From NCBI RefSeq assembly GCF_001677475.2, contig NZ_CP015229.1: DNA of 64,000 nucleotides. One strand, 5' to 3'. Within the stretch, counting starts at the first letter, position 1; the number at the start of each line of letters is the position of its first letter. This document shows positions 17,061 through 23,246 of this stretch, piece by piece. The stretch comes from Escherichia coli (GTDB taxonomy: Bacteria; Pseudomonadota; Gammaproteobacteria; Enterobacterales; Enterobacteriaceae). A program made the translations under genes and the position numbers. The notes beneath the pieces were generated by a model, which saw only the letters and a program-made list of their open reading frames with translations, was not told the origin of the DNA and did no database searches.

Positions 17061-18149
17061 TCAGGCTTTAAACGATTCCACTTTTTCGAACGCTGCACGC
17101 AACGTATCTGGTGTCAGCGTGACTGGCAGGTAATGAATGGACTCCACCGGACGTAAGGTGTGGGCAATCACTTTGTCGATCTCCGCCTGATTATTGATAT
17201 CCACTTCCAGCTCCGCCAGCGTAGTCGGCAGATGAAAACGTTGATACGCCCCGGTTAATTGCGCCAGCACATCATCCTGACCCAGCAAGGCGCTTTGCAC
17301 CAGAATGCCGTAGGCGACTTTGGTGCCGTGGAGAAACTTCTCGGTTTGCGGCAAAACGGTCAGACCGTTATGCACGGCATGGGCCGCCGCCACACGCGTA
17401 AAACGATCGCCCAGACCACCGACCATCCCACCACCAGCAATAATAGCATCCACCACATCGCAAAATGATTGCGTTAACTGTTGTTTTTGCTGATCGCTCA
17501 GCGCCTGTTCGCTACTGTTTAACAAGACGTCGCGAATGGCCTGCGCATTATTGATCCCCAGACGCACGGTTAGCGGCAAGGTTTCTGGTTGCGGAGCCAG
17601 CACCACCGCTTCATACCATTTCGCCAGCGTGTCACCGATCCCCGCCAGCAGATATTCTTGCGGCGCATTGAGGATAATCTCTGGCTCCACCAGCACCATA
17701 AAATTGGCGTCGTCGAAAATCTCATAATGCAGCGCCTGTCCGGCATCGTTATACCAGACGGAGAGCGGTGTCCAGGCGGCGCAGGTGGCGGCGATCGTCG
17801 GAACGGCAACAAACGGCAGACCGAGACGGCGGGCGAGGGCTTTCGCGGTGTCGAGCAGTGCGCCGCCGCCGACGCCAATCACCACGCTGCGATCGTCACC
17901 GGACTCAGCCGCCAGGTGCTGTACATCGCTTTCGCTGCAATGACCGCGAAACAAAATATGCTTTGCACCAGGCAGTTGAAACGCTGGTGGAAGTCTGATT
18001 TGCGCCGCAGCAATGGCGCGTTCGCCGTAGATCCACACCGCGCGAGAAAGCTGTTCATCAGTGAAAAAGTCGTGCAGGTGATTGAAACTTCCTGGATGTG
18101 AAAAGTAGTTAGCCGGGCCGACGACGACGCGGATAGGATTGTGAGGCAT
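17061..18149 (-). CDS. ybdH: Iron-containing alcohol/hydroxycarboxylate dehydrogenase family protein
   Basis: 362-aa ORF with glycine-rich NAD-binding stretch GVGGGALLDTAK. Confidence 0.9.
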   Translation of the reverse strand: MPHNPIRVVVGPANYFSHPGSFNHLHDFFTDEQLSRAVWIYGERAIAAAQIRLPPAFQLPGAKHILFRGHCSESDVQHLAAESGDDRSVVIGVGGGALLDTAKALARRLGLPFVAVPTIAATCAAWTPLSVWYNDAGQALHYEIFDDANFMVLVEPEIILNAPQEYLLAGIGDTLAKWYEAVVLAPQPETLPLTVRLGINNAQAIRDVLLNSSEQALSDQQKQQLTQSFCDVVDAIIAGGGMVGGLGDRFTRVAAAHAVHNGLTVLPQTEKFLHGTKVAYGILVQSALLGQDDVLAQLTGAYQRFHLPTTLAELEVDINNQAEIDKVIAHTLRPVESIHYLPVTLTPDTLRAAFEKVESFKA

Positions 18150-18257
18150 GTTGTGTTGTCCTTATTGTTTTATTTAGACATCTAAACGTCTTGATTGCCA
18201 AATACTAGCATCGTGTTATAGTGCCTTCAACACGCAACTTCGTCAGGCACAATAAAA

Positions 18258-19418
18258 ATGACAAATAACCCTCTGATTCCACAAAGCAAACTTCCACAAC
18301 TTGGCACTACCATTTTCACCCAGATGAGCGCGCTGGCGCAGCAACACCAGGCGATTAACCTGTCGCAAGGCTTTCCTGATTTTGATGGTCCGCGCTATTT
18401 ACAGGAGCGGCTGGCGTACCACGTTGCCCAGGGGGCAAACCAATACGCGCCCATGACCGGCGTGCAGGCCTTGCGCGAGGCGATTGCTCAGAAAACGGAA
18501 CGTTTGTATGGCTATCAACCAGATGCCGATAGCGATATCACCGTAACGGCAGGGGCGACGGAAGCGTTATATGCAGCGATTACCGCATTGGTGCGCAATG
18601 GTGATGAAGTGATCTGCTTTGATCCCAGCTATGACAGTTACGCGCCCGCCATCGCGCTTTCGGGGGGAATAGTGAAACGTATTGCACTGCAACCACCGCA
18701 TTTTCGCGTGGACTGGCAGGAATTTGCCGCATTGTTAAGCGAGCGCACCCGACTGGTGATCCTCAACACCCCGCATAACCCCAGTGCAACTGTCTGGCAG
18801 CAGGCTGATTTCGCCGCTTTGTGGCAGGCAATTGCCGGGCACGAGATTTTTGTCATTAGCGATGAAGTTTACGAGCACATCAACTTTTCACAACAGGGCC
18901 ATGCCAGCGTGCTGTCGCATCCGCAGCTGCGTGAGCGGGCGGTGGCAGTTTCTTCATTTGGCAAGACTTATCATATGACCGGCTGGAAAGTGGGTTATTG
19001 CGTTGCGCCAGCGCCCATCAGTGCCGAAATTCGCAAGGTACATCAGTATCTGACCTTTTCGGTAAATACCCCGGCGCAACTGGCGCTTGCCGATATGCTA
19101 CGTGCAGAACCTGAGCATTATCTTGCGTTACCGGACTTTTATCGCCAGAAACGCGATATTCTGGTGAATGCCTTAAGTGAGAGTCGGCTGGAGATTTTAC
19201 CGTGCGAAGGTACATACTTTTTGCTGGTGGATTACAGCGCCGTGTCTACGCTGGATGACGTTGAGTTTTGCCAGTGGCTGACGCGGGAGCACGGTGTAGC
19301 GGCGATTCCGCTGTCGGTGTTTTGCGCCGATCCCTTCCCCCATAAACTGATTCGTCTCTGTTTTGCCAAGAAGGAATCGACGTTGCTGGCAGCAGCTGAA
19401 CGCCTGCGCCAGCTGTAG
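18258..19418 (+). CDS. ybdL: PLP-dependent aminotransferase (methionine aminotransferase family)
   Basis: 386 aa; PLP-lysine motif SFGKTYHMTGWKVGY. Confidence 0.9.
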   Translation: MTNNPLIPQSKLPQLGTTIFTQMSALAQQHQAINLSQGFPDFDGPRYLQERLAYHVAQGANQYAPMTGVQALREAIAQKTERLYGYQPDADSDITVTAGATEALYAAITALVRNGDEVICFDPSYDSYAPAIALSGGIVKRIALQPPHFRVDWQEFAALLSERTRLVILNTPHNPSATVWQQADFAALWQAIAGHEIFVISDEVYEHINFSQQGHASVLSHPQLRERAVAVSSFGKTYHMTGWKVGYCVAPAPISAEIRKVHQYLTFSVNTPAQLALADMLRAEPEHYLALPDFYRQKRDILVNALSESRLEILPCEGTYFLLVDYSAVSTLDDVEFCQWLTREHGVAAIPLSVFCADPFPHKLIRLCFAKKESTLLAAAERLRQL

Positions 19419-20048
19419 TTATTTAACCGTCCAGGCGCGGGAAAATTGACGGTCGGCAAACAGTTCTTGCAGGCCGTTAATTTGCTTCAGGCGCAGCACT
19501 TCGTCGCTGTCCATTCCCAGCTCTTTGCCGATTTTATGATCGTCCCATCCCAACTGGCTGAGTTCACGAACAATTTCGGACATGGCAGTGATTTGGTGGC
19601 GACCACGAGCGCGGTTATGACGAATAGTCGCGGCGATGCGTTGATTACGCGTACCTTCCAGACAGGTCACCGGCAAATAACCTTTTAAGCGTAATTTTAA
19701 CGATGATGAGCCTTTACCAATTTCATGGCGGTGAAAACCATCCACGATTTCCAGGGCATTTTTATCCGTATGCGTGACCACAATGGGTTGGGTAAAACCA
19801 TCTATTTCAATGGATTTTTTCAGCAGTTTTTTTTCGGGTGGTGCCACGTTGTTTGGGTTGTAATCATTAGGCATAAGTTGGCTGTTTTTAACCCACAGAA
19901 CGCAATCCACTGGCTCTTCTCGAAAGGGGCTAACCTGATGGATCGCCATGCGGATTTCATTAATCGCTTTGATGCGATCGTCTTCCGGCAAGCTGGCGAG
20001 AAATTGGGTTAAATCCTGCGTTAATCGTTGTTGCATAGTATCCCCCAT
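19419..20048 (-). CDS. ybdM: ParB/sulfiredoxin-like domain protein
   Basis: 209 aa; DGFHRH motif and arginine-rich RHNRARGRH; start overlaps the 3' end of ybdN by 28 nt. Confidence 0.85.
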   Translation of the reverse strand: MGDTMQQRLTQDLTQFLASLPEDDRIKAINEIRMAIHQVSPFREEPVDCVLWVKNSQLMPNDYNPNNVAPPEKKLLKKSIEIDGFTQPIVVTHTDKNALEIVDGFHRHEIGKGSSSLKLRLKGYLPVTCLEGTRNQRIAATIRHNRARGRHQITAMSEIVRELSQLGWDDHKIGKELGMDSDEVLRLKQINGLQELFADRQFSRAWTVK

Positions 20049-21241
20049 TCCTGACGTTTTCCTTTTATTCGTTCGTTATAACGCTGATAGTTCTTCGCTT
20101 TGGTCGGGCTAAATGATAATGCCCGACACCAGTAATCGTTATTGAGTAAAACTTTGCATATTCGCCGCCAGGAGGGGATATCTTTCGCGCCAATGTCCCC
20201 TTGCTGGGTTTGTGGAACCTCGATGCCTTTTTTCTGATACCAGTGCAAATAAATGGCGATTTTATTGCGATAATGCTCAGCTGTTTTCTCCGGCATGCTG
20301 TTGAGTAGCAATAATGCATACTCCTGCCAGTCTAAATGTTCGGGCTTGAGGATTTTCCGATGACCATAAAAATGGTTGTCATGTCCGGCGTAAATGCCGC
20401 CACTTTTTACCCCGCTGACTCGTGCGCACATAGCAGCCCAGCGATCCGGTTCGATAACGTGATAGAGCCATAATCCTTGCCGTTGTTCCGGACCAAAAGG
20501 TTCGCAAATTCGCATATGACGCAGAGGAACGCCTGCCTGATACATTAGGTTATACAGTGGGTTGCAGAGACTTTGATGATTTGCATACCAGGTCCAGATA
20601 TCAGCCACTTTCCAGTCGTAGATGGGGTAAATGTACCAACTATGACCGCCTGGTGCGGCAGTAGTCCAGGGCTTATCATCGGCAAAACGTTGTTTATTTA
20701 AACTGGCGATGGCGACAAAACGGTTGTAGGACTCATCCGCACGGATGCCGATCATCATCGCCGCCGGACGTTTTTGCGAAAACCATTCGGCAAACTCACG
20801 CACAAATTGTTCGAAGGTCATGCCAGGCTGGTAAAAGGAGAAAAAGTCAGGATCGGTTATCGCATCTTGCGGGGGCTGACGTACCCATTCGACATCAGGT
20901 TCCCAGCACTGCCATTCGGGTTGGTATTGTGATAGGGAATTTTGCGTTGTAAGCGGGAGCGCAACCCAGTAAAACTCTTCGATGACATCGGTGTACAACT
21001 CGCGCAGAGACTGAACATAGTTAATGGTGCAAGAGAACTGAGCTTCCCAGTCGATAAATAAAACACAAATTTTTTTGCCCATTTGTCGGGCAAGTTCGGC
21101 GGTCAGATGCAGCATTAATCCGGAATCTTTACCACCCGAAAAAGAAACGCAGACGCGGGGTAGGGTGTTAAGTGTCCAGGTAATACGTTCTTTTGCAGCT
21201 TCCAGAATATTCAGTGGAAGCGGGATTTTATAAATAGACAT
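20021..21241 (-). CDS. ybdN: PAPS-reductase-like / PP-loop ATP pyrophosphatase family protein
   Basis: 406 aa; PP-loop SFSGGKDS near the N-terminus. Confidence 0.85.
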   Translation of the reverse strand: MSIYKIPLPLNILEAAKERITWTLNTLPRVCVSFSGGKDSGLMLHLTAELARQMGKKICVLFIDWEAQFSCTINYVQSLRELYTDVIEEFYWVALPLTTQNSLSQYQPEWQCWEPDVEWVRQPPQDAITDPDFFSFYQPGMTFEQFVREFAEWFSQKRPAAMMIGIRADESYNRFVAIASLNKQRFADDKPWTTAAPGGHSWYIYPIYDWKVADIWTWYANHQSLCNPLYNLMYQAGVPLRHMRICEPFGPEQRQGLWLYHVIEPDRWAAMCARVSGVKSGGIYAGHDNHFYGHRKILKPEHLDWQEYALLLLNSMPEKTAEHYRNKIAIYLHWYQKKGIEVPQTQQGDIGAKDIPSWRRICKVLLNNDYWCRALSFSPTKAKNYQRYNERIKGKRQEWGILCNND

Positions 21242-21387
21242 CTGAAAACGCTCTCTGAACGTTACGGGGTGATCAGTGAGATAAGACTGTTAATTATAAA
21301 GTAAACACTGTAAAGCAGAGTGTTTTATTTTTCATTCGCGCCGTGAATAAATAGATGAAAGTTATAGTAGCTGTCTGAAGTTATATA

Positions 21388-22290
21388 TCAAAAACTCTCA
21401 TTTAGGCGGTCAATAAATCGGGAGAACACCAGGTTATTTAAAGAAGATTTATTATAGGAAATGTAAAGCTTTATTGAAGGTAACGGATGCTCTAGTTTTA
21501 TCTCTTTTAAATTAAGAAAGTCACGGTGGGAGTTATAAAGTTCATAGGGAACTATTCCCAGTAAATCTGTAACTGCAATGCTATTAATGATTGTCAGCAA
21601 AGAGGAACCACGAAATGAAATTTTGCGATTCATAAACTTCTCATCTATTTCCATTTGAATATCATCAACCCCTGCTGATTTGGATATTAATTGGGTGAAC
21701 TCTTCTGCCATAATTTGCTCATAAGTGCTATTGTCAGTAATTCGCGGATGCTTATTACTACAAATTAGAGTATTGCGAATTGTATGCAATGGCATGCAAA
21801 TAACGGAACGGCTGATTACTGGCATTTGGGTGATCACCAGATCGGCTTTGCGGTGAACCAACAGTTCTTCAGCATTCTCTGCTGACATGAGGATATCATG
21901 GCACTCAATCTCGACAGAGGCATCTTGTCGTAGGCAGCGGATCAGCATACTATTATTAGAGCAAGAAATGAGCTGAGGGCCGTAGATAATAAAATTTTTC
22001 TTTAGTTCGGACTTATTGACTATATTAATTGTTTGTTCAAGGTCTCTGAGATTTTTCTCAAGATGGTGATGCAGATTTAACCCTGTCGTCGTCGGCGCGA
22101 TACCTTTTCCTGAGCGAATGAATAAAGGGTCATTAAATTGCGCACGTAAGCGTTGTAACGACTGGCTCACGGCTGATGGGGTGATATATAGTGATTCAGC
22201 AGCCTTGCTAATGCTTAAATGCTGATAAATACACTCAAATATGACAAGAAGATTTAAGTCGAACTTTTTCAAGTCGTAGAGATTGGCCAT
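21388..22290 (-). CDS. ybdO: LysR-family transcriptional regulator
   Basis: 300 aa; N-terminal helix-turn-helix (ISKAAESLYITPSAVSQSLQRL); AT-rich gene. Confidence 0.85.
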   Translation of the reverse strand: MANLYDLKKFDLNLLVIFECIYQHLSISKAAESLYITPSAVSQSLQRLRAQFNDPLFIRSGKGIAPTTTGLNLHHHLEKNLRDLEQTINIVNKSELKKNFIIYGPQLISCSNNSMLIRCLRQDASVEIECHDILMSAENAEELLVHRKADLVITQMPVISRSVICMPLHTIRNTLICSNKHPRITDNSTYEQIMAEEFTQLISKSAGVDDIQMEIDEKFMNRKISFRGSSLLTIINSIAVTDLLGIVPYELYNSHRDFLNLKEIKLEHPLPSIKLYISYNKSSLNNLVFSRFIDRLNESF

Positions 22291-22499
22291 ACACTACTCC
22301 GGTTATATTTTTCTTCCATGGTATATTCACTTAATCAATGTTTTTTTGCGTATATATTTTTATTGATTATATTTTTTTGCTTAACTCAGGATTAAGTTTT
22401 TCTAAAATAGCACAGCCACTTAGGGCAGAGCGAGCAATTCATGCTTTTTTAGGATGGTTGAAAAGCAGGGATGTATTTCAACCATCCATGAATTATCTT

Positions 22500-23246
22500 T
22501 TATTTATTCCCCATAATGATATTAAGCGTTTTCTGATCGGGCAACCCCACGGCCTGTTGCAGCGTATTTTCCTTACTCATGTAATAGATAGCTGGTGTGA
22601 CATTTGCCCCCAGATCGTCCATGAGTTTTTCGTTGTCGCTTAACACTTTCATTTGCTCTGTACTTACGTTTGCAGGCACGTTTAGCTTAAGCTTGCCACC
22701 AGAGGATTCATATTCTTGCCAGGTTTTTGCGGGATCTTTGGAGGCAAGAATTGCCGCTGCTGTAGCCGGGCTTTCTGGCTTGATAACCCCAACCAACAAT
22801 GTTCTTAATTGCACTTTGCCAGAATCTACCCACGGGCGCGCCTGCTGCCAGAACTGTTTACAATATGGGCAGAACGGATCGGCGAAGACGTAGACAATGA
22901 CCGGCGCATCTTTTTTACCGTCGAGGAGCCAGTGGGATTGTTCCATCCGTTGCCACATTTCGCGTCCGGCTGGTGCGTAAATTTCTTTTTCGATAAGTGT
23001 GTTACTCAGGTTTTCACCTTTCTCGTTGTACATGTAACCGGATATGGCGTGCTTACCATCTGGAGTCAGGTAGATGGTGACGCCCATATCCTGATACTTT
23101 CCGAGATAACCTTTCATTCCTCCGGGGGCATCGAACGTTTTGATGATTGTAATGCCCTGTTTTTCAATCGCTTTTACTGGGGCAGGAAGTTCCTCTGCGA
23201 AGGCGATTGCTGGAAGCAGAGCCAGTAAAAGTATCTTTTTTAACAT
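22500..23246 (-). CDS. dsbG: Periplasmic thiol:disulfide interchange protein
   Basis: Trimmed to ATG at 23246 ([11 protein letters not shown]...); signal peptide; CPYC active site. Confidence 0.9.

What the first reader, a model, noticed from the sequence alone, without database searches (positions are those of the whole stretch)
19419..22290. ybdM-ybdN overlapping pair (ParB/sulfiredoxin-like + PP-loop PAPS-reductase-like) next to AT-rich LysR gene ybdO
Seen in sequence: ybdN carries a PP-loop (SFSGGKDS), the hallmark of PAPS-reductase / ATP-pyrophosphatase enzymes. ybdM carries a ParB/sulfiredoxin-type DGFHRH motif plus an arginine-rich RHNRARGRH segment. The two genes overlap by 28 nt (20021-20048), implying co-expression. 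ybdO, directly upstream on the same strand, is a visibly AT-rich LysR regulator. Established knowledge: this pair is paralogous to the IbrA/IbrB pair, and ParB-like plus PAPS-reductase-like pairs have been predicted by comparative genomics to act on DNA or nucleotides; I know of no demonstrated biochemical function for ybdMN. Inference: this is the most plausible seat of uncharacterised enzymology in the window, possibly a DNA-modifying or defence-like two-protein system kept silent by H-NS-type repression.
Basis: partly seen in the sequence, partly recalled or inferred. Interest (0 to 1): 0.55.

Follow-up and report, generated by a model that had tools for sequence, protein, structure and literature searches.

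The report
ybdNM: ParB-like plus adenylating enzyme
These are the already catalogued but still functionless E. coli genes ybdN and ybdM: an ATP-splitting enzyme (probably misnamed a sulfate-pathway reductase) tightly coupled to a ParB-like DNA-binding protein, a pair that occurs widely in phages and phage-like contigs as well as in bacteria and probably acts on DNA, though no one has shown what it does.

Summary
ybdM (19419-20048), ybdN (20021-21241) and ybdO/citR (21388-22290) lie on the minus strand with a 28-nt overlap, and the stated motifs are present.

Both folds are supported:
- YbdN has an invariant PP-loop and sits in the CysD / FMN-adenylyltransferase / PAPS-reductase clade. It has no family-wide conserved cysteine, so it is probably an ATP pyrophosphatase, not a PAPS reductase.
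- YbdM is a truncated ParB: a nucleotide-pocket N-domain plus an HTH, closest to CTP-binding ParB, Noc and KorB.

The pair is strongly co-conserved. It is adjacent in 82/83 cellular and phage loci and within two genes in 71/80 viral contigs. Third partners vary: an SNF2 ATPase, a Cys/His-rich protein (X1) sometimes fused to ParB, GNAT, and an EctC-like cupin.

In E. coli the pair is core (5422/5426 genomes), syntenic across Enterobacteriaceae and under purifying selection. Published work shows CitR represses it. It is therefore not a variable defence island, and PADLOC gives only weak sub-threshold hits.

The locus, its IbrAB paralogy and its regulator are already known; the biochemistry is not. 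My best guess, at modest confidence, is an NTP-gated, DNA-targeted adenylylation or modification module.

The parts
20021..21241 (-). ybdN CDS (406 aa): PAPS_reduct-fold PP-loop ATP pyrophosphatase domain (residues ~30-234) plus the family-specific helical domain DUF3440 (237-383)
21122..21145 (-). PP-loop SFSGGKDS (YbdN residues 33-40), the ATP alpha/beta-phosphate binding loop
   Evidence: Translation. G37, K38 and S40 are invariant in 63 representatives; S35, G37, K38, D39 and S40 are >=95% conserved in 162 relatives.
19419..20048 (-). ybdM CDS (209 aa): N-terminal two-helix extension, ParB/Srx nucleotide-pocket domain, HTH-like domain and a conserved C-terminal tail FSxxWTV
   Evidence: ORF. 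Pfam ParB_N 2.8e-4. PHROG 2159 1e-68. Family profile vs PDB: Noc 6e-7, ParB 1e-5. Foldseek of the modelled YbdM part: ParB-CDP 6sdk 4e-7, Noc, KorB, 136-156 aligned columns.
19728..19742 (-). DGFHR (YbdM 103-107), at the position of the ParB GERR / sulfiredoxin GCHR phosphate-binding motif
   Evidence: Translation. D103, G104 and R107 are invariant and H106 is >=90% conserved in 39 relatives. It aligns to 'GERR' of Noc and ParB.
19596..19628 (-). TIRHNRARGRH (YbdM 141-151), an invariant motif between the ParB N-domain and the HTH. By its order in the sequence it sits where ParB has box III (ENxxR); this correspondence is inferred.
   Evidence: Translation. R143-G149 and H151 are invariant.
19458..19556 (-). 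HTH-like C-terminal region of YbdM (QLGWDDHKIGKELGMDSDEVLRLKQINGLQELF)
   Evidence: G178, M179, E183 and G192 are invariant. Three short helices in the model. The Foldseek alignments to ParB, Noc and KorB are long enough to extend beyond the N-domain.
20021..20048 (-). 28-nt overlap of the ybdN 3' end with the ybdM 5' end (translational coupling)
   Evidence: The same overlap is found in 10/10 full-length enterobacterial orthologous loci, and the genes overlap or abut in most other loci.
21242..21387 (-). citR-ybdN intergenic region (146 bp, GC 0.349). The promoter-like site TTGATA-16-TACTAT lies at 21364-21391, its first hexamer starting in the last codons of citR. No terminator-like site.
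   Evidence: The region is poorly conserved between genera.
21388..22290 (-). ybdO = citR, the LysR-type repressor of ybdNM
   Evidence: NCBIfam NF047710 CitR, 465 bits against a cut-off of 400. ChIP-exo peak upstream of citR-ybdNM, and derepression in the deletion mutant (PMC9068703).

Best explanation
ybdN-ybdM is the chromosomal, CitR-repressed E. coli copy of the IbrA/IbrB two-gene module.

YbdM is a truncated ParB. It has a nucleotide-binding ParB/Srx N-domain whose pocket is altered but invariant within the family (NxYNPN, DGFHR, RHNRARGxH), followed by an HTH. I take it to be the DNA-targeting, NTP-gated subunit.

YbdN is an ATP pyrophosphatase (adenylyl-transferring enzyme) of the CysD / FMN-adenylyltransferase / PAPS-reductase clade, with an intact PP-loop and a private helical domain (DUF3440). 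It is probably not a PAPS reductase.

Together they most likely perform an ATP-dependent adenylylation-type step on or at the DNA bound by YbdM. This would be a covalent nucleic-acid modification or activation. In cells the read-out would be altered expression of silenced, horizontally acquired genes, as reported for IbrAB and the prophage eib genes. In phages it would serve the incoming or replicating genome.

Shown here: the folds, the invariant motifs, co-conservation, the variable accessory partners, core status and purifying selection. Shown in the literature: repression by CitR. Inferred: that DNA is the substrate, the chemistry, and the physiological consequence.
For: Enzyme:
- The PP-loop is invariant, as are D64, E66, R167, E170, S171, R174, D209 and D214.
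- dN/dS is 0.05.

DNA link:
- The YbdM model matches CTP-bound ParB, Noc and KorB over 136-156 columns.
- The same ParB subtype cross-hits ParB-DNA-methyltransferase fusion families (phrog_498 1e-10; PADLOC MTase_II).
- An SNF2-type ATPase (Pfam SNF2-rel_dom + Helicase_C) lies next to the pair in about 33 of 163 loci, immediately upstream in most. These include three unrelated sequenced phages.
- In viral contigs the pair sits among replication and recombination genes.

Coupling:
- The genes are adjacent in 82/83 loci and within two genes in 71/80 loci, with overlapping reading frames.
- Accessory enzymes are fused to the ParB subunit: X1 in 20 loci and an EctC-like cupin in phage Gaia.

Phenotype of the paralogue: ibrB presence enhances Eib expression (Sandt 2002, as cited in PMC7649339).

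Regulation: CitR represses ybdNM.
Against: - No activity on DNA, or any other biochemical activity, has been shown for any family member.
- The E. coli locus lacks every accessory partner (no X1 in the window; no helicase).
- DUF3440 has no recognisable DNA-binding fold, and the integrase-SAM hint failed (1/63 members).
- The linker-fused AF2 model gave pTM 0.56, so a rigid YbdN-YbdM complex is not supported.
- No conserved DNA site was found near the locus.
- The IbrAB phenotype could be plain transcription factor action.
- Stable vertical inheritance as a core gene is unusual for DNA-modification cassettes.
Confidence: 0.35

Rival explanations
1. Non-covalent transcription co-activator pair. 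YbdM binds DNA as a KorB-like NTP-dependent regulator. YbdN acts as a ligand-sensing or ATP-consuming cofactor (as KorA does for KorB) without modifying nucleic acid. The pair switches on silenced horizontally acquired genes.
For: Presence of ibrB enhances Eib expression (cited in PMC7649339), and databases name the family 'prophage gene co-activator'. YbdM's structural neighbours include the transcriptional repressor KorB. Accessory E. coli copies sit next to a fimbrial (F4/K88) operon, a TonB-dependent receptor gene, glycosyltransferase genes and, in STEC, perC.
Against: Catalytic residues of the PP-loop enzyme are invariant across phyla and phages, which argues for catalysis rather than mere sensing. 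The recurrent enzymatic partners (SNF2 ATPase, GNAT, EctC-like cupin) are not expected for a simple activator.
Confidence: 0.25
2. The target is RNA (for example tRNA) or a small molecule or nucleotide rather than DNA. YbdM would then act as a ParB/Srx-fold kinase or NTPase (like SerK/SbnI or sulfiredoxin) that feeds or regulates an adenylyl transfer by YbdN, possibly touching sulfur or adenylyl-sulfate metabolism.
Against: YbdM keeps an HTH-like domain and matches DNA-binding ParBs over both domains. The SNF2 partner is expected to act on double-stranded DNA. The module is placed among phage DNA replication genes. The cys regulon change is only a correlation, and it comes from a single mutant.
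Confidence: 0.17
3. A silent anti-phage defence system.
For: ParB-like plus PAPS-reductase-like proteins occur in Dnd, Ssp and type 4 BREX defence (PMC10853773 and PMC12839542). YbdN gives weak hits to DndC (1.9e-5) and BrxP (1.2e-4). The block is GC-poor and repressed.
Against: No PADLOC model matches beyond those weak partial hits. The locus is core, single-copy and syntenic in Enterobacteriaceae, not variable. No restriction or effector partner is present. The module is abundant in phages and viral contigs.
Confidence: 0.07
4. A genuine assimilatory PAPS/APS reductase (the current RefSeq product name, and the 'cysH AMG' reading for the viral DUF3440 clade).
For: Pfam PAPS_reduct domain. CysH is the top Foldseek hit. 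RefSeq names it so. The viral DUF3440 clade is treated as CysH in bioRxiv 10.1101/2021.01.05.425418.
Against: No cysteine is conserved across the family: C246, the only one near the CysH catalytic position, is 52-56% conserved and is replaced by Ala or Asp. The PP-loop is the ATP-binding type. NCBIfam CysH models score 25-36 bits against cut-offs of 154-254. The enzyme has an obligate ParB partner and the extra DUF3440 domain.
Confidence: 0.03

Closest known systems
IbrA/IbrB (immunoglobulin-binding regulator pair of E. coli ECOR-9 and STEC)
   Same: Same two-gene architecture: PAPS_reduct+DUF3440 followed by an IbrB-like ParB, overlapping and on the same strand. Identity to an accessory E. 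coli pair annotated as 'IbrB-like' is 59% and 55%. The mechanism of IbrAB is equally unknown.
   Different: ybdNM is a core, syntenic, CitR-controlled locus. IbrAB-like copies are accessory: up to 5 matching places per genome, 118 of them on plasmids, in IS-rich islands or next to fimbrial genes. No eib-type target is known for ybdNM.
DndB/DndC (and SspD, BrxP) of DNA phosphorothioation systems
   Same: They also pair a ParB-superfamily protein carrying a DGxHR-type motif with a PP-loop ATP pyrophosphatase of the PAPS-reductase fold that acts on DNA (PMC10853773). YbdN gives weak hits to DndC and BrxP.
   Different: No Fe-S or dyad cysteines are conserved. There are no DndA/D/E or Ssp partners. 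Scores are far below family cut-offs (DndC 22 bits vs 290). YbdM has no PADLOC hit other than a weak match to a type II methyltransferase model. DUF3440 is absent from DndC (from knowledge, not tested).
CTP-dependent ParB-family clamps (ParB/Spo0J, Noc, KorB)
   Same: Best structural and profile matches of YbdM cover the N-terminal nucleotide domain plus the HTH. KorB is also a transcriptional regulator.
   Different: GERR is replaced by DGFHR and box I 'QPR' by 'NPN'. The protein ends just after the HTH, so there is no room for a C-terminal dimerisation domain (inferred from length and alignment, not compared directly). No ParA is nearby. The TIGR00180 score is 15.8 against a cut-off of 58. 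Nucleotide specificity is unknown.
CysD (ATP sulfurylase small subunit), eukaryotic FMN adenylyltransferase, and CysH
   Same: Nearest solved folds and profiles for the YbdN catalytic domain. Like CysD and FMNAT, it has an ATP-type PP-loop.
   Different: It carries the extra DUF3440 domain, has an obligate ParB partner, and lacks a conserved catalytic Cys. All NCBIfam scores are far below cut-off.
ParB-domain fusions to DNA methyltransferases in phages
   Same: The YbdM-type ParB domain cross-matches these families (phrog_498 1e-10; PADLOC MTase_II 8e-4). This suggests the ParB domain serves as a DNA-targeting module for a modifying enzyme.
   Different: Here the partner is a separate PP-loop enzyme, not a SAM-dependent methylase.

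Membership tests
IbrA/IbrB-type two-gene module | Protein with a PAPS_reduct domain followed by DUF3440 | tested here: met
   Pfam. All 63 representatives carry DUF3440 and 62 carry PAPS_reduct at E<=0.001.
IbrA/IbrB-type two-gene module | Adjacent, co-oriented IbrB-like ParB/HTH gene | tested here: met
   28-nt overlap in the window. Adjacent in 82/83 cellular and phage loci and within two genes in 71/80 viral loci. RefSeq names YbdM 'IbrB-like domain-containing protein'.
IbrA/IbrB-type two-gene module | Sequence relationship to E. coli IbrAB-like pairs | tested here: met
   59% (YbdN) and 55% (YbdM) identity over the full length. I did not have the ECOR-9 IbrAB sequences themselves.
IbrA/IbrB-type two-gene module | Trans-activation of prophage eib (or other) genes | not testable with these tools
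   Known only for IbrAB (Sandt 2002, cited in PMC7649339).
Assimilatory PAPS/APS reductase (CysH) | Adenine-nucleotide alpha-hydrolase fold of the PAPS_reduct type | tested here: met
Assimilatory PAPS/APS reductase (CysH) | Conserved C-terminal catalytic cysteine (ECG[LI]H) | tested here: not met
   No cysteine is conserved family-wide. C246 is 52% conserved in 63 sequences and 56% in 162, with Ala or Asp in the rest.
Assimilatory PAPS/APS reductase (CysH) | Score above the curated NCBIfam cut-offs | tested here: not met
   TIGR02057 35.5 vs 254; NF002537 34.3 vs 154; TIGR00434 25.1 vs 165.
DndC / SspD / BrxP DNA phosphorothioation enzymes | Score above the family cut-off; conserved Fe-S and dyad cysteines; DndA/D/E or Ssp/BREX partners nearby | tested here: not met
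   TIGR03183 22.3 vs 290. PADLOC DndC 1.9e-5 and BrxP 1.2e-4, both partial. No conserved Cys. No such neighbours.
ParB/Spo0J/Noc/KorB CTPase DNA clamps | ParB N-terminal nucleotide domain followed by an HTH DNA-binding domain | tested here: met
   Family profile vs PDB: Noc 6e-7, ParB 1e-5. Foldseek: ParB-CDP 4e-7, KorB 5e-6, 136-156 columns.
ParB/Spo0J/Noc/KorB CTPase DNA clamps | GERRxR motif, C-terminal dimerisation domain, ParA (or KorA) partner, family cut-off | tested here: not met
   DGFHR stands in place of GERR. The protein ends just after the HTH. No ParA in the neighbourhood. TIGR00180 15.8 vs 58.45.
ParB/Spo0J/Noc/KorB CTPase DNA clamps | CTP (NTP) binding and hydrolysis; DNA binding | not testable with these tools
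   The pocket residues are invariant within the family, but nucleotide specificity cannot be read from the sequence.
Known anti-phage defence systems (PADLOC-DB 2.0) | Significant match of the components to a defence-system model; location in variable islands | tested here: not met
   Only weak partial hits. The locus is present in 5422/5426 E. coli genomes at a fixed position.
CitR (LysR-type repressor), for ybdO | Score above the NF047710 equivalog cut-off | tested here: met
   465.4 bits vs a cut-off of 400, full length.

The most novel reading that the evidence does not exclude
IbrA/IbrB-type modules, including E. coli YbdNM, may be a so far unrecognised class of NTP-gated, DNA-targeted adenylylating (nucleic-acid modifying) systems. 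They would be spread largely by phages and have interchangeable accessory enzymes: an SNF2 translocase, the Cys/His-rich protein X1 (sometimes fused to the ParB subunit), GNAT, and an EctC-like cupin. E. coli would keep a minimal, CitR-silenced two-gene version in its core genome. As a corollary, the viral 'cysH + DUF3440' auxiliary metabolic genes would not be sulfur-assimilation genes.
Probability: 0.25. Interest if true: 0.8.

Novelty: already known. Interest (0 to 1): 0.45.

Why it matters
ybdN and ybdM are among the remaining function-unknown genes of the best-studied bacterium. They are core genes, under purifying selection, and specifically repressed.

The same module is common in phages of Firmicutes, Actinobacteria and Bacteroidetes and in many viral contigs. 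There it is annotated either as a 'prophage co-activator' or as a sulfur-metabolism 'cysH' auxiliary gene. Neither label rests on biochemistry, and the second conflicts with the lack of a conserved catalytic cysteine.

Working out the reaction would do four things:
- assign a function to a widespread phage and bacterial gene pair;
- correct a propagated annotation;
- test whether ParB-type nucleotide switches are general loaders for DNA-modifying enzymes, as suggested by DndB and the ParB-methylase fusions;
- explain how IbrAB switches on virulence-associated surface proteins.

E. coli offers a ready genetic handle, because deleting citR derepresses the operon.

Tried and rejected
1. **Linker-fused AF2 model.** I modelled YbdN-(GGGGS)6-YbdM with 20 paired sequences to test complex formation. 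It gave pLDDT 77 and pTM 0.56, so a rigid complex is not supported. Only a hint remains: new beta strands at YbdN 5-11 and YbdM 204-208. No coordinates or PAE were available.

3. **Conserved operator or parS-like site.** The citR-ybdN intergenic regions of 10 enterobacterial loci align poorly. The only inverted repeat in 19300-22600 lies next to dsbG. Nothing usable.

4. **High allelic diversity of the locus as a sign of diversifying selection on ybdMN.** In one search, 1309 genomes matched at 80-90%. The divergence is confined to citR; ybdM and ybdN diverge like the flanking genes. Rejected.

5. **Long or fused YbdN relatives as Rosetta stones.** One (P0123) carries an N-terminal small domain that by eye resembles a small protein (cluster c8; phrog_26647) found immediately upstream of ybdN relatives in four viral loci. 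The others look like frameshift or chimeric products.

6. **Family assignment of X1 and X2.** No hit in Pfam, PHROGs or NCBIfam.

7. **Literature.** Sandt 2002, Maindola 2014 and Iyer 2013 are not held in the library. What I say about them rests on citations in other papers or on my own memory, and is marked as such.


Full report
**1. The observation**

The window carries three co-oriented minus-strand ORFs exactly as described: ybdM 19419-20048 (209 aa), ybdN 20021-21241 (406 aa) and ybdO 21388-22290 (300 aa). ybdN and ybdM overlap by 28 nt. The motifs translate as claimed: SFSGGKDS at 21122-21145, DGFHR at 19728-19742 and TIRHNRARGRH at 19596-19628.

The block is GC-poor relative to its surroundings. 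GC is 0.475 for ybdM, 0.472 for ybdN, 0.386 for ybdO and 0.349 for the ybdO-ybdN spacer. This compares with 0.541 for the neighbouring ybdL and 0.512 for the window.

The flanking genes are hcxA/ybdH and ybdL on one side and dsbG and ahpCF on the other. This is the standard Escherichia coli arrangement.

**2. What is already known**

RefSeq annotates the three genes as follows:
- ybdN: 'phosphoadenosine phosphosulfate reductase'
- ybdM: 'IbrB-like domain-containing protein'
- ybdO: citR

NCBIfam confirms YbdO as CitR, at 465 bits against a cut-off of 400.

Rodionova et al. (PMC9068703) reported three things:
- A CitR ChIP-exo peak upstream of citR-ybdNM.
- A citR deletion raises ybdN by log2 5.5 and ybdM by log2 2.5.
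- Basal expression is very low.

They left the function of ybdNM open. A 2022 proteomics paper calls YbdM 'completely uncharacterized' (PMC8764527). Searches for later functional work on YbdMN or IbrAB found none.

Paralogy to IbrAB is real. An accessory E. coli pair that RefSeq annotates as 'IbrB-like' is 59% (YbdN) and 55% (YbdM) identical over the full length. The only phenotype known for the family is that ibrB presence enhances expression of the prophage-borne Eib proteins (Sandt 2002, as cited in PMC7649339).

**3. YbdN**

*Domains and fold.* Pfam finds PAPS_reduct (residues 30-234, 1e-13) and DUF3440 (237-383, 5e-23). All 63 diverse relatives carry this combination. An AF2 model built on that alignment is confident, with pLDDT 91.9 and pTM 0.89.

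*Nearest relatives.*
- The family profile against PDB sequences ranks CysD (1e-10) and FAD synthase (2e-9) ahead of CysH (3e-6).
- Foldseek agrees on the clade.

*Conserved residues.* The invariant or near-invariant residues are the PP-loop S35-G-G-K-D-S40, D64, E66, W119, R121, G165, R167, E170, S171, R174, D209, W210 and D214.

*Cysteines.* No cysteine is conserved across the family.
- C246 lies just after the core domain, where CysH carries its catalytic ECGLH cysteine. It is present in only 52-56% of members and is Ala or Asp in the rest.
- C372 is 94% conserved among the 162 closer relatives but only 54% among representatives clustered at 50% identity.

*Family scores.* NCBIfam CysH, CysD and DndC models all score far below their cut-offs.

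*Conclusion.* YbdN is a catalytically intact ATP pyrophosphatase or adenylyl-transfer enzyme of the CysD/FMNAT/CysH clade. The product name 'PAPS reductase' describes the fold, not the function. It is not a DndC-type Fe-S sulfurtransferase either. DUF3440 has no structural or profile neighbour.

**4. YbdM**

*Profile evidence.* Pfam ParB_N is weak for the single sequence (2.8e-4). The family evidence is stronger:
- PHROG 2159 'ParB-like partition protein' matches at 1e-68.
- A 39-sequence family profile hits Noc (6e-7), ParB (1e-5) and Spo0J. It hits SbnI and free serine kinase weakly.

*Structural evidence.* The YbdM part of a model is closest to B. subtilis ParB-CDP (4e-7), M. xanthus ParB-CTPgammaS, Noc, KorB and C. 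crescentus ParB. These matches cover 136-156 columns, long enough to span the nucleotide-binding N-domain and the following HTH.

*Invariant motifs.* The alignment shows invariant motifs across bacteria, one archaeal MAG and three phages:
- NxYNPN (residues 61-66), at the position of ParB box I.
- DG[FY]HR (103-107), at the GERR position.
- T-I-R-H-N-R-A-R-G-x-H (141-151).
- An LGM..DE.LRLKQ..GL helix-turn-helix-like stretch.
- A conserved C-terminal F-S-x-x-W tail.

*Conclusion.* YbdM is a truncated ParB. Its pocket is altered but strictly conserved, it has no room for a C-terminal dimerisation domain, and it has no ParA partner. It falls below the ParB family cut-off (TIGR00180 15.8 against 58). 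Its only PADLOC hit at E<=0.01 is a weak match to a type II methyltransferase model. Together with the hit to phrog_498, that reflects ParB-methyltransferase fusions.

**5. Co-conservation and partners**

*Adjacency.* A scan of one genome per species returned 80 loci, to which I added three sequenced phages.
- The IbrB-like gene is adjacent to the IbrA-like gene in 82 of these 83 loci. The one exception is a 2.5-kb contig that ends there.
- The order is almost always N then M, on one strand, overlapping or abutting.
- In 80 IMG/VR viral contigs the ParB gene lies within two genes in 71.

*Family size and range.* The family is large and phylogenetically wide. There are 1,686 clusters at 50% identity with E<=1e-3 among 1.84 billion representatives. 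Hosts include Proteobacteria, Bacteroidota, Firmicutes, Verrucomicrobiota, Actinobacteria, Campylobacterota and a Heimdallarchaeote MAG.

*Variable partners.* The position next to the pair is occupied by variable third components.

| Partner | Where it is found |
|---|---|
| SNF2-type ATPase (Pfam SNF2-rel_dom + Helicase_C) | about 33 of 163 loci, including Streptococcus phage CHPC1148, Mycobacterium phage Gaia and Flavobacterium phage 2A |
| X1, a ~135-aa Cys/His-rich protein (RIFHxYxKWE...SCEHxLTN..NRIAWLGQAxxC) with no family assignment | 56 viral loci; fused to the C-terminus of the ParB protein in 20 of them |
| X2, an unrelated 137-aa protein | Bacteroidales |
| GNAT acetyltransferase | 5 viral loci |
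| Ectoine-synthase-like cupin (NF009806, 154 bits against a cut-off of 128) | 4 viral loci; fused N-terminally to the ParB protein of phage Gaia |

In viral contigs the neighbours are replication and recombination genes: DnaB, RecT-like, exonuclease, NinG/Rap, RusA, VRR-NUC and a beta clamp.

*Nearest outgroup.* The X1-associated, mostly viral group is the nearest outgroup of the enterobacterial YbdN/IbrA clade. Its median identity to YbdN is 41%, against 32-34% for the other groups. The window itself encodes no X1 and no helicase near the locus.

**6. Status in E. coli and relatives**

*Core locus.* The 3.1-kb region is present in 5422 of 5426 complete E. coli genomes. It is almost always a single chromosomal copy. 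In nine loci from other enterobacterial genera, plus a partial E. albertii locus, it sits in the same synteny...dsbG, citR, ybdN, ybdM, ybdL....

*Selection.* Against a distant E. coli allele:
- ybdM is 97.5% identical at the nucleotide level, with dN/dS 0.04.
- ybdN is 95.2% identical, with dN/dS 0.05.

Both values resemble those of the flanking genes. The genes are therefore functional and vertically maintained, and this is not a variable island.

*Accessory paralogues.* Accessory IbrAB-like paralogues do behave as mobile cargo. There are 8087 matching places in 5420 genomes, up to five per genome, and 118 on plasmids. They lie in IS-rich islands or beside the F4/K88 fimbrial operon.

*Transcription.* ybdL and ybdM converge with abutting stop codons and no terminator-like site between them. 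The pair is listed as a convergent excludon in K-12 RNA-seq (PMC12288877).

**7. How it most likely works**

*What is shown.*
- A catalytically intact ATP alpha-beta-cleaving enzyme is obligatorily paired with a ParB-type nucleotide-pocket-plus-HTH protein.
- The pair recurrently recruits a predicted double-stranded-DNA translocase or small enzymes, some of them fused to the ParB subunit.
- It is widespread in phages, where it lies in the DNA replication module.
- In E. coli it is repressed by its neighbour CitR.

*What is inferred.*
- YbdM targets DNA under nucleotide control.
- YbdN performs an adenylylation-type activation or modification there.
- The outcome is a change in expression or protection of the DNA concerned.

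I put this at 0.35.

*Rivals.*
- A non-covalent co-activator mechanism, at 0.25. It explains the IbrAB phenotype but not the invariant catalytic residues or the enzymatic partners.
- An RNA or small-molecule target, at 0.17. The ParB/Srx fold includes kinases and the YbdN clade works on small molecules. The CysB regulon rises together with ybdNM in the citR mutant, but that is only a correlation.
- A defence system, at 0.07.
- A true PAPS reductase, at 0.03.

*Complex formation.* A linker-fused AF2 model did not support a rigid complex (pTM 0.56).

**8. Novelty and verdict**

The locus, its gene names, its paralogy to IbrAB and its regulator are already on record.

This analysis adds the following:
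- Evidence that the 'PAPS reductase' label is a misnomer. The 'cysH AMG' reading of the viral DUF3440 clade (bioRxiv 10.1101/2021.01.05.425418) is affected in the same way.
- A quantified co-conservation of the pair.
- The catalogue of variable third partners, including fusions to the ParB subunit.
- The ParB, Noc and KorB-like architecture of YbdM.
- The demonstration that the E. coli copy is a core gene pair under purifying selection, not a defence island.

The biochemical function remains open and is directly testable in E. coli. Interest is moderate (0.45).

Noticed in passing
window 21388-22290 (citR/ybdO); L084 8089-8991: citR has at least two deeply divergent allele classes within E. 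coli. The window and strain 1380 differ at 79.6% nt / 88.7% aa identity, with dS about 2.3. The adjacent ybdN, ybdM, ybdL, hcxA and dsbG are 95-97.5% identical. This explains the 1309 genomes that match the region at only 80-90%. It suggests ancient allelic replacement or balancing selection at the regulator alone.
   Followed up: partly
window 17061-22400: The window is not identical to any of 5,426 complete E. coli genomes. The best match is 98.9% over ybdM-citR and 97.4% over ybdL-hcxA, with most genomes around 96%. The source appears to be an Escherichia lineage outside those represented.
   Followed up: no
L004 (CAUHML010000335.1, 2537 bp): A contig binned into an 'uncultured Bacteroides sp.' MAG carries a ybdN 100% identical to the window, preceded by a citR-family ORF (it clusters with the enterobacterial CitR genes). 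It is almost certainly a mis-binned Escherichia contig.
   Followed up: no
window 19416-19421: The convergent genes ybdL and ybdM have directly abutting stop codons with no terminator-like structure between them. The pair is listed as a convergent 'excludon' in E. coli K-12 RNA-seq (PMC12288877). Transcription of ybdL may therefore interfere with ybdNM, and the reverse.
   Followed up: partly
window 22452-22487: A perfect 12-nt inverted repeat (GGATGGTTGAAA / TTTCAACCATCC, 12-nt spacer) lies between the dsbG stop and the citR start. It could be a dsbG terminator stem or a regulator site upstream of citR.
   Followed up: no
L087-L166 (viral contigs), e.g. L125 7559-7981; fused forms e.g. L134 746-1885: X1 is a ~135-aa Cys/His-rich protein family (RIFHxYxKWE ... 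SCEHxLTN..NRIAWLGQAxxC) with no Pfam, PHROG or NCBIfam assignment. It lies immediately upstream of the IbrA-like gene in many viral contigs and is fused to the C-terminus of the ParB-like protein in 20 of them.
   Followed up: partly
L002 5290-6189 (Mycobacterium phage Gaia gp104); L166 2251-2634 and three other viral loci: An ectoine-synthase-like cupin (NF009806, above its cut-off) is inserted between the IbrA-like and IbrB-like genes in four viral loci. In phage Gaia it is fused to the N-terminus of the ParB-like protein. A GNAT acetyltransferase occupies a neighbouring position in five other loci.
   Followed up: partly
literature: PMC9068703 Table 1; PMC8764527; PMC12147183: Three unexplained phenotypes are on record. 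The CysB sulfur regulon is up by log2 1.8-2.8 in the citR deletion mutant, together with ybdNM. YbdM protein rises 29-fold in MG1655 carrying plasmid pUUH239.2, linked to blaCTX-M-15. The Keio ybdM knockout scored in a lacritin-peptide resistance screen.
   Followed up: no
L085 8992-10844; L086 6989-8844: Accessory IbrAB-like pairs in E. coli sit in IS-rich islands beside a TonB-dependent receptor gene and glycosyltransferase genes. On a virulence plasmid one sits directly after the F4/K88 fimbrial operon. In STEC, ibrB is next to perC (PMC7649339). This pattern suggests control of surface or virulence genes.
   Followed up: partly
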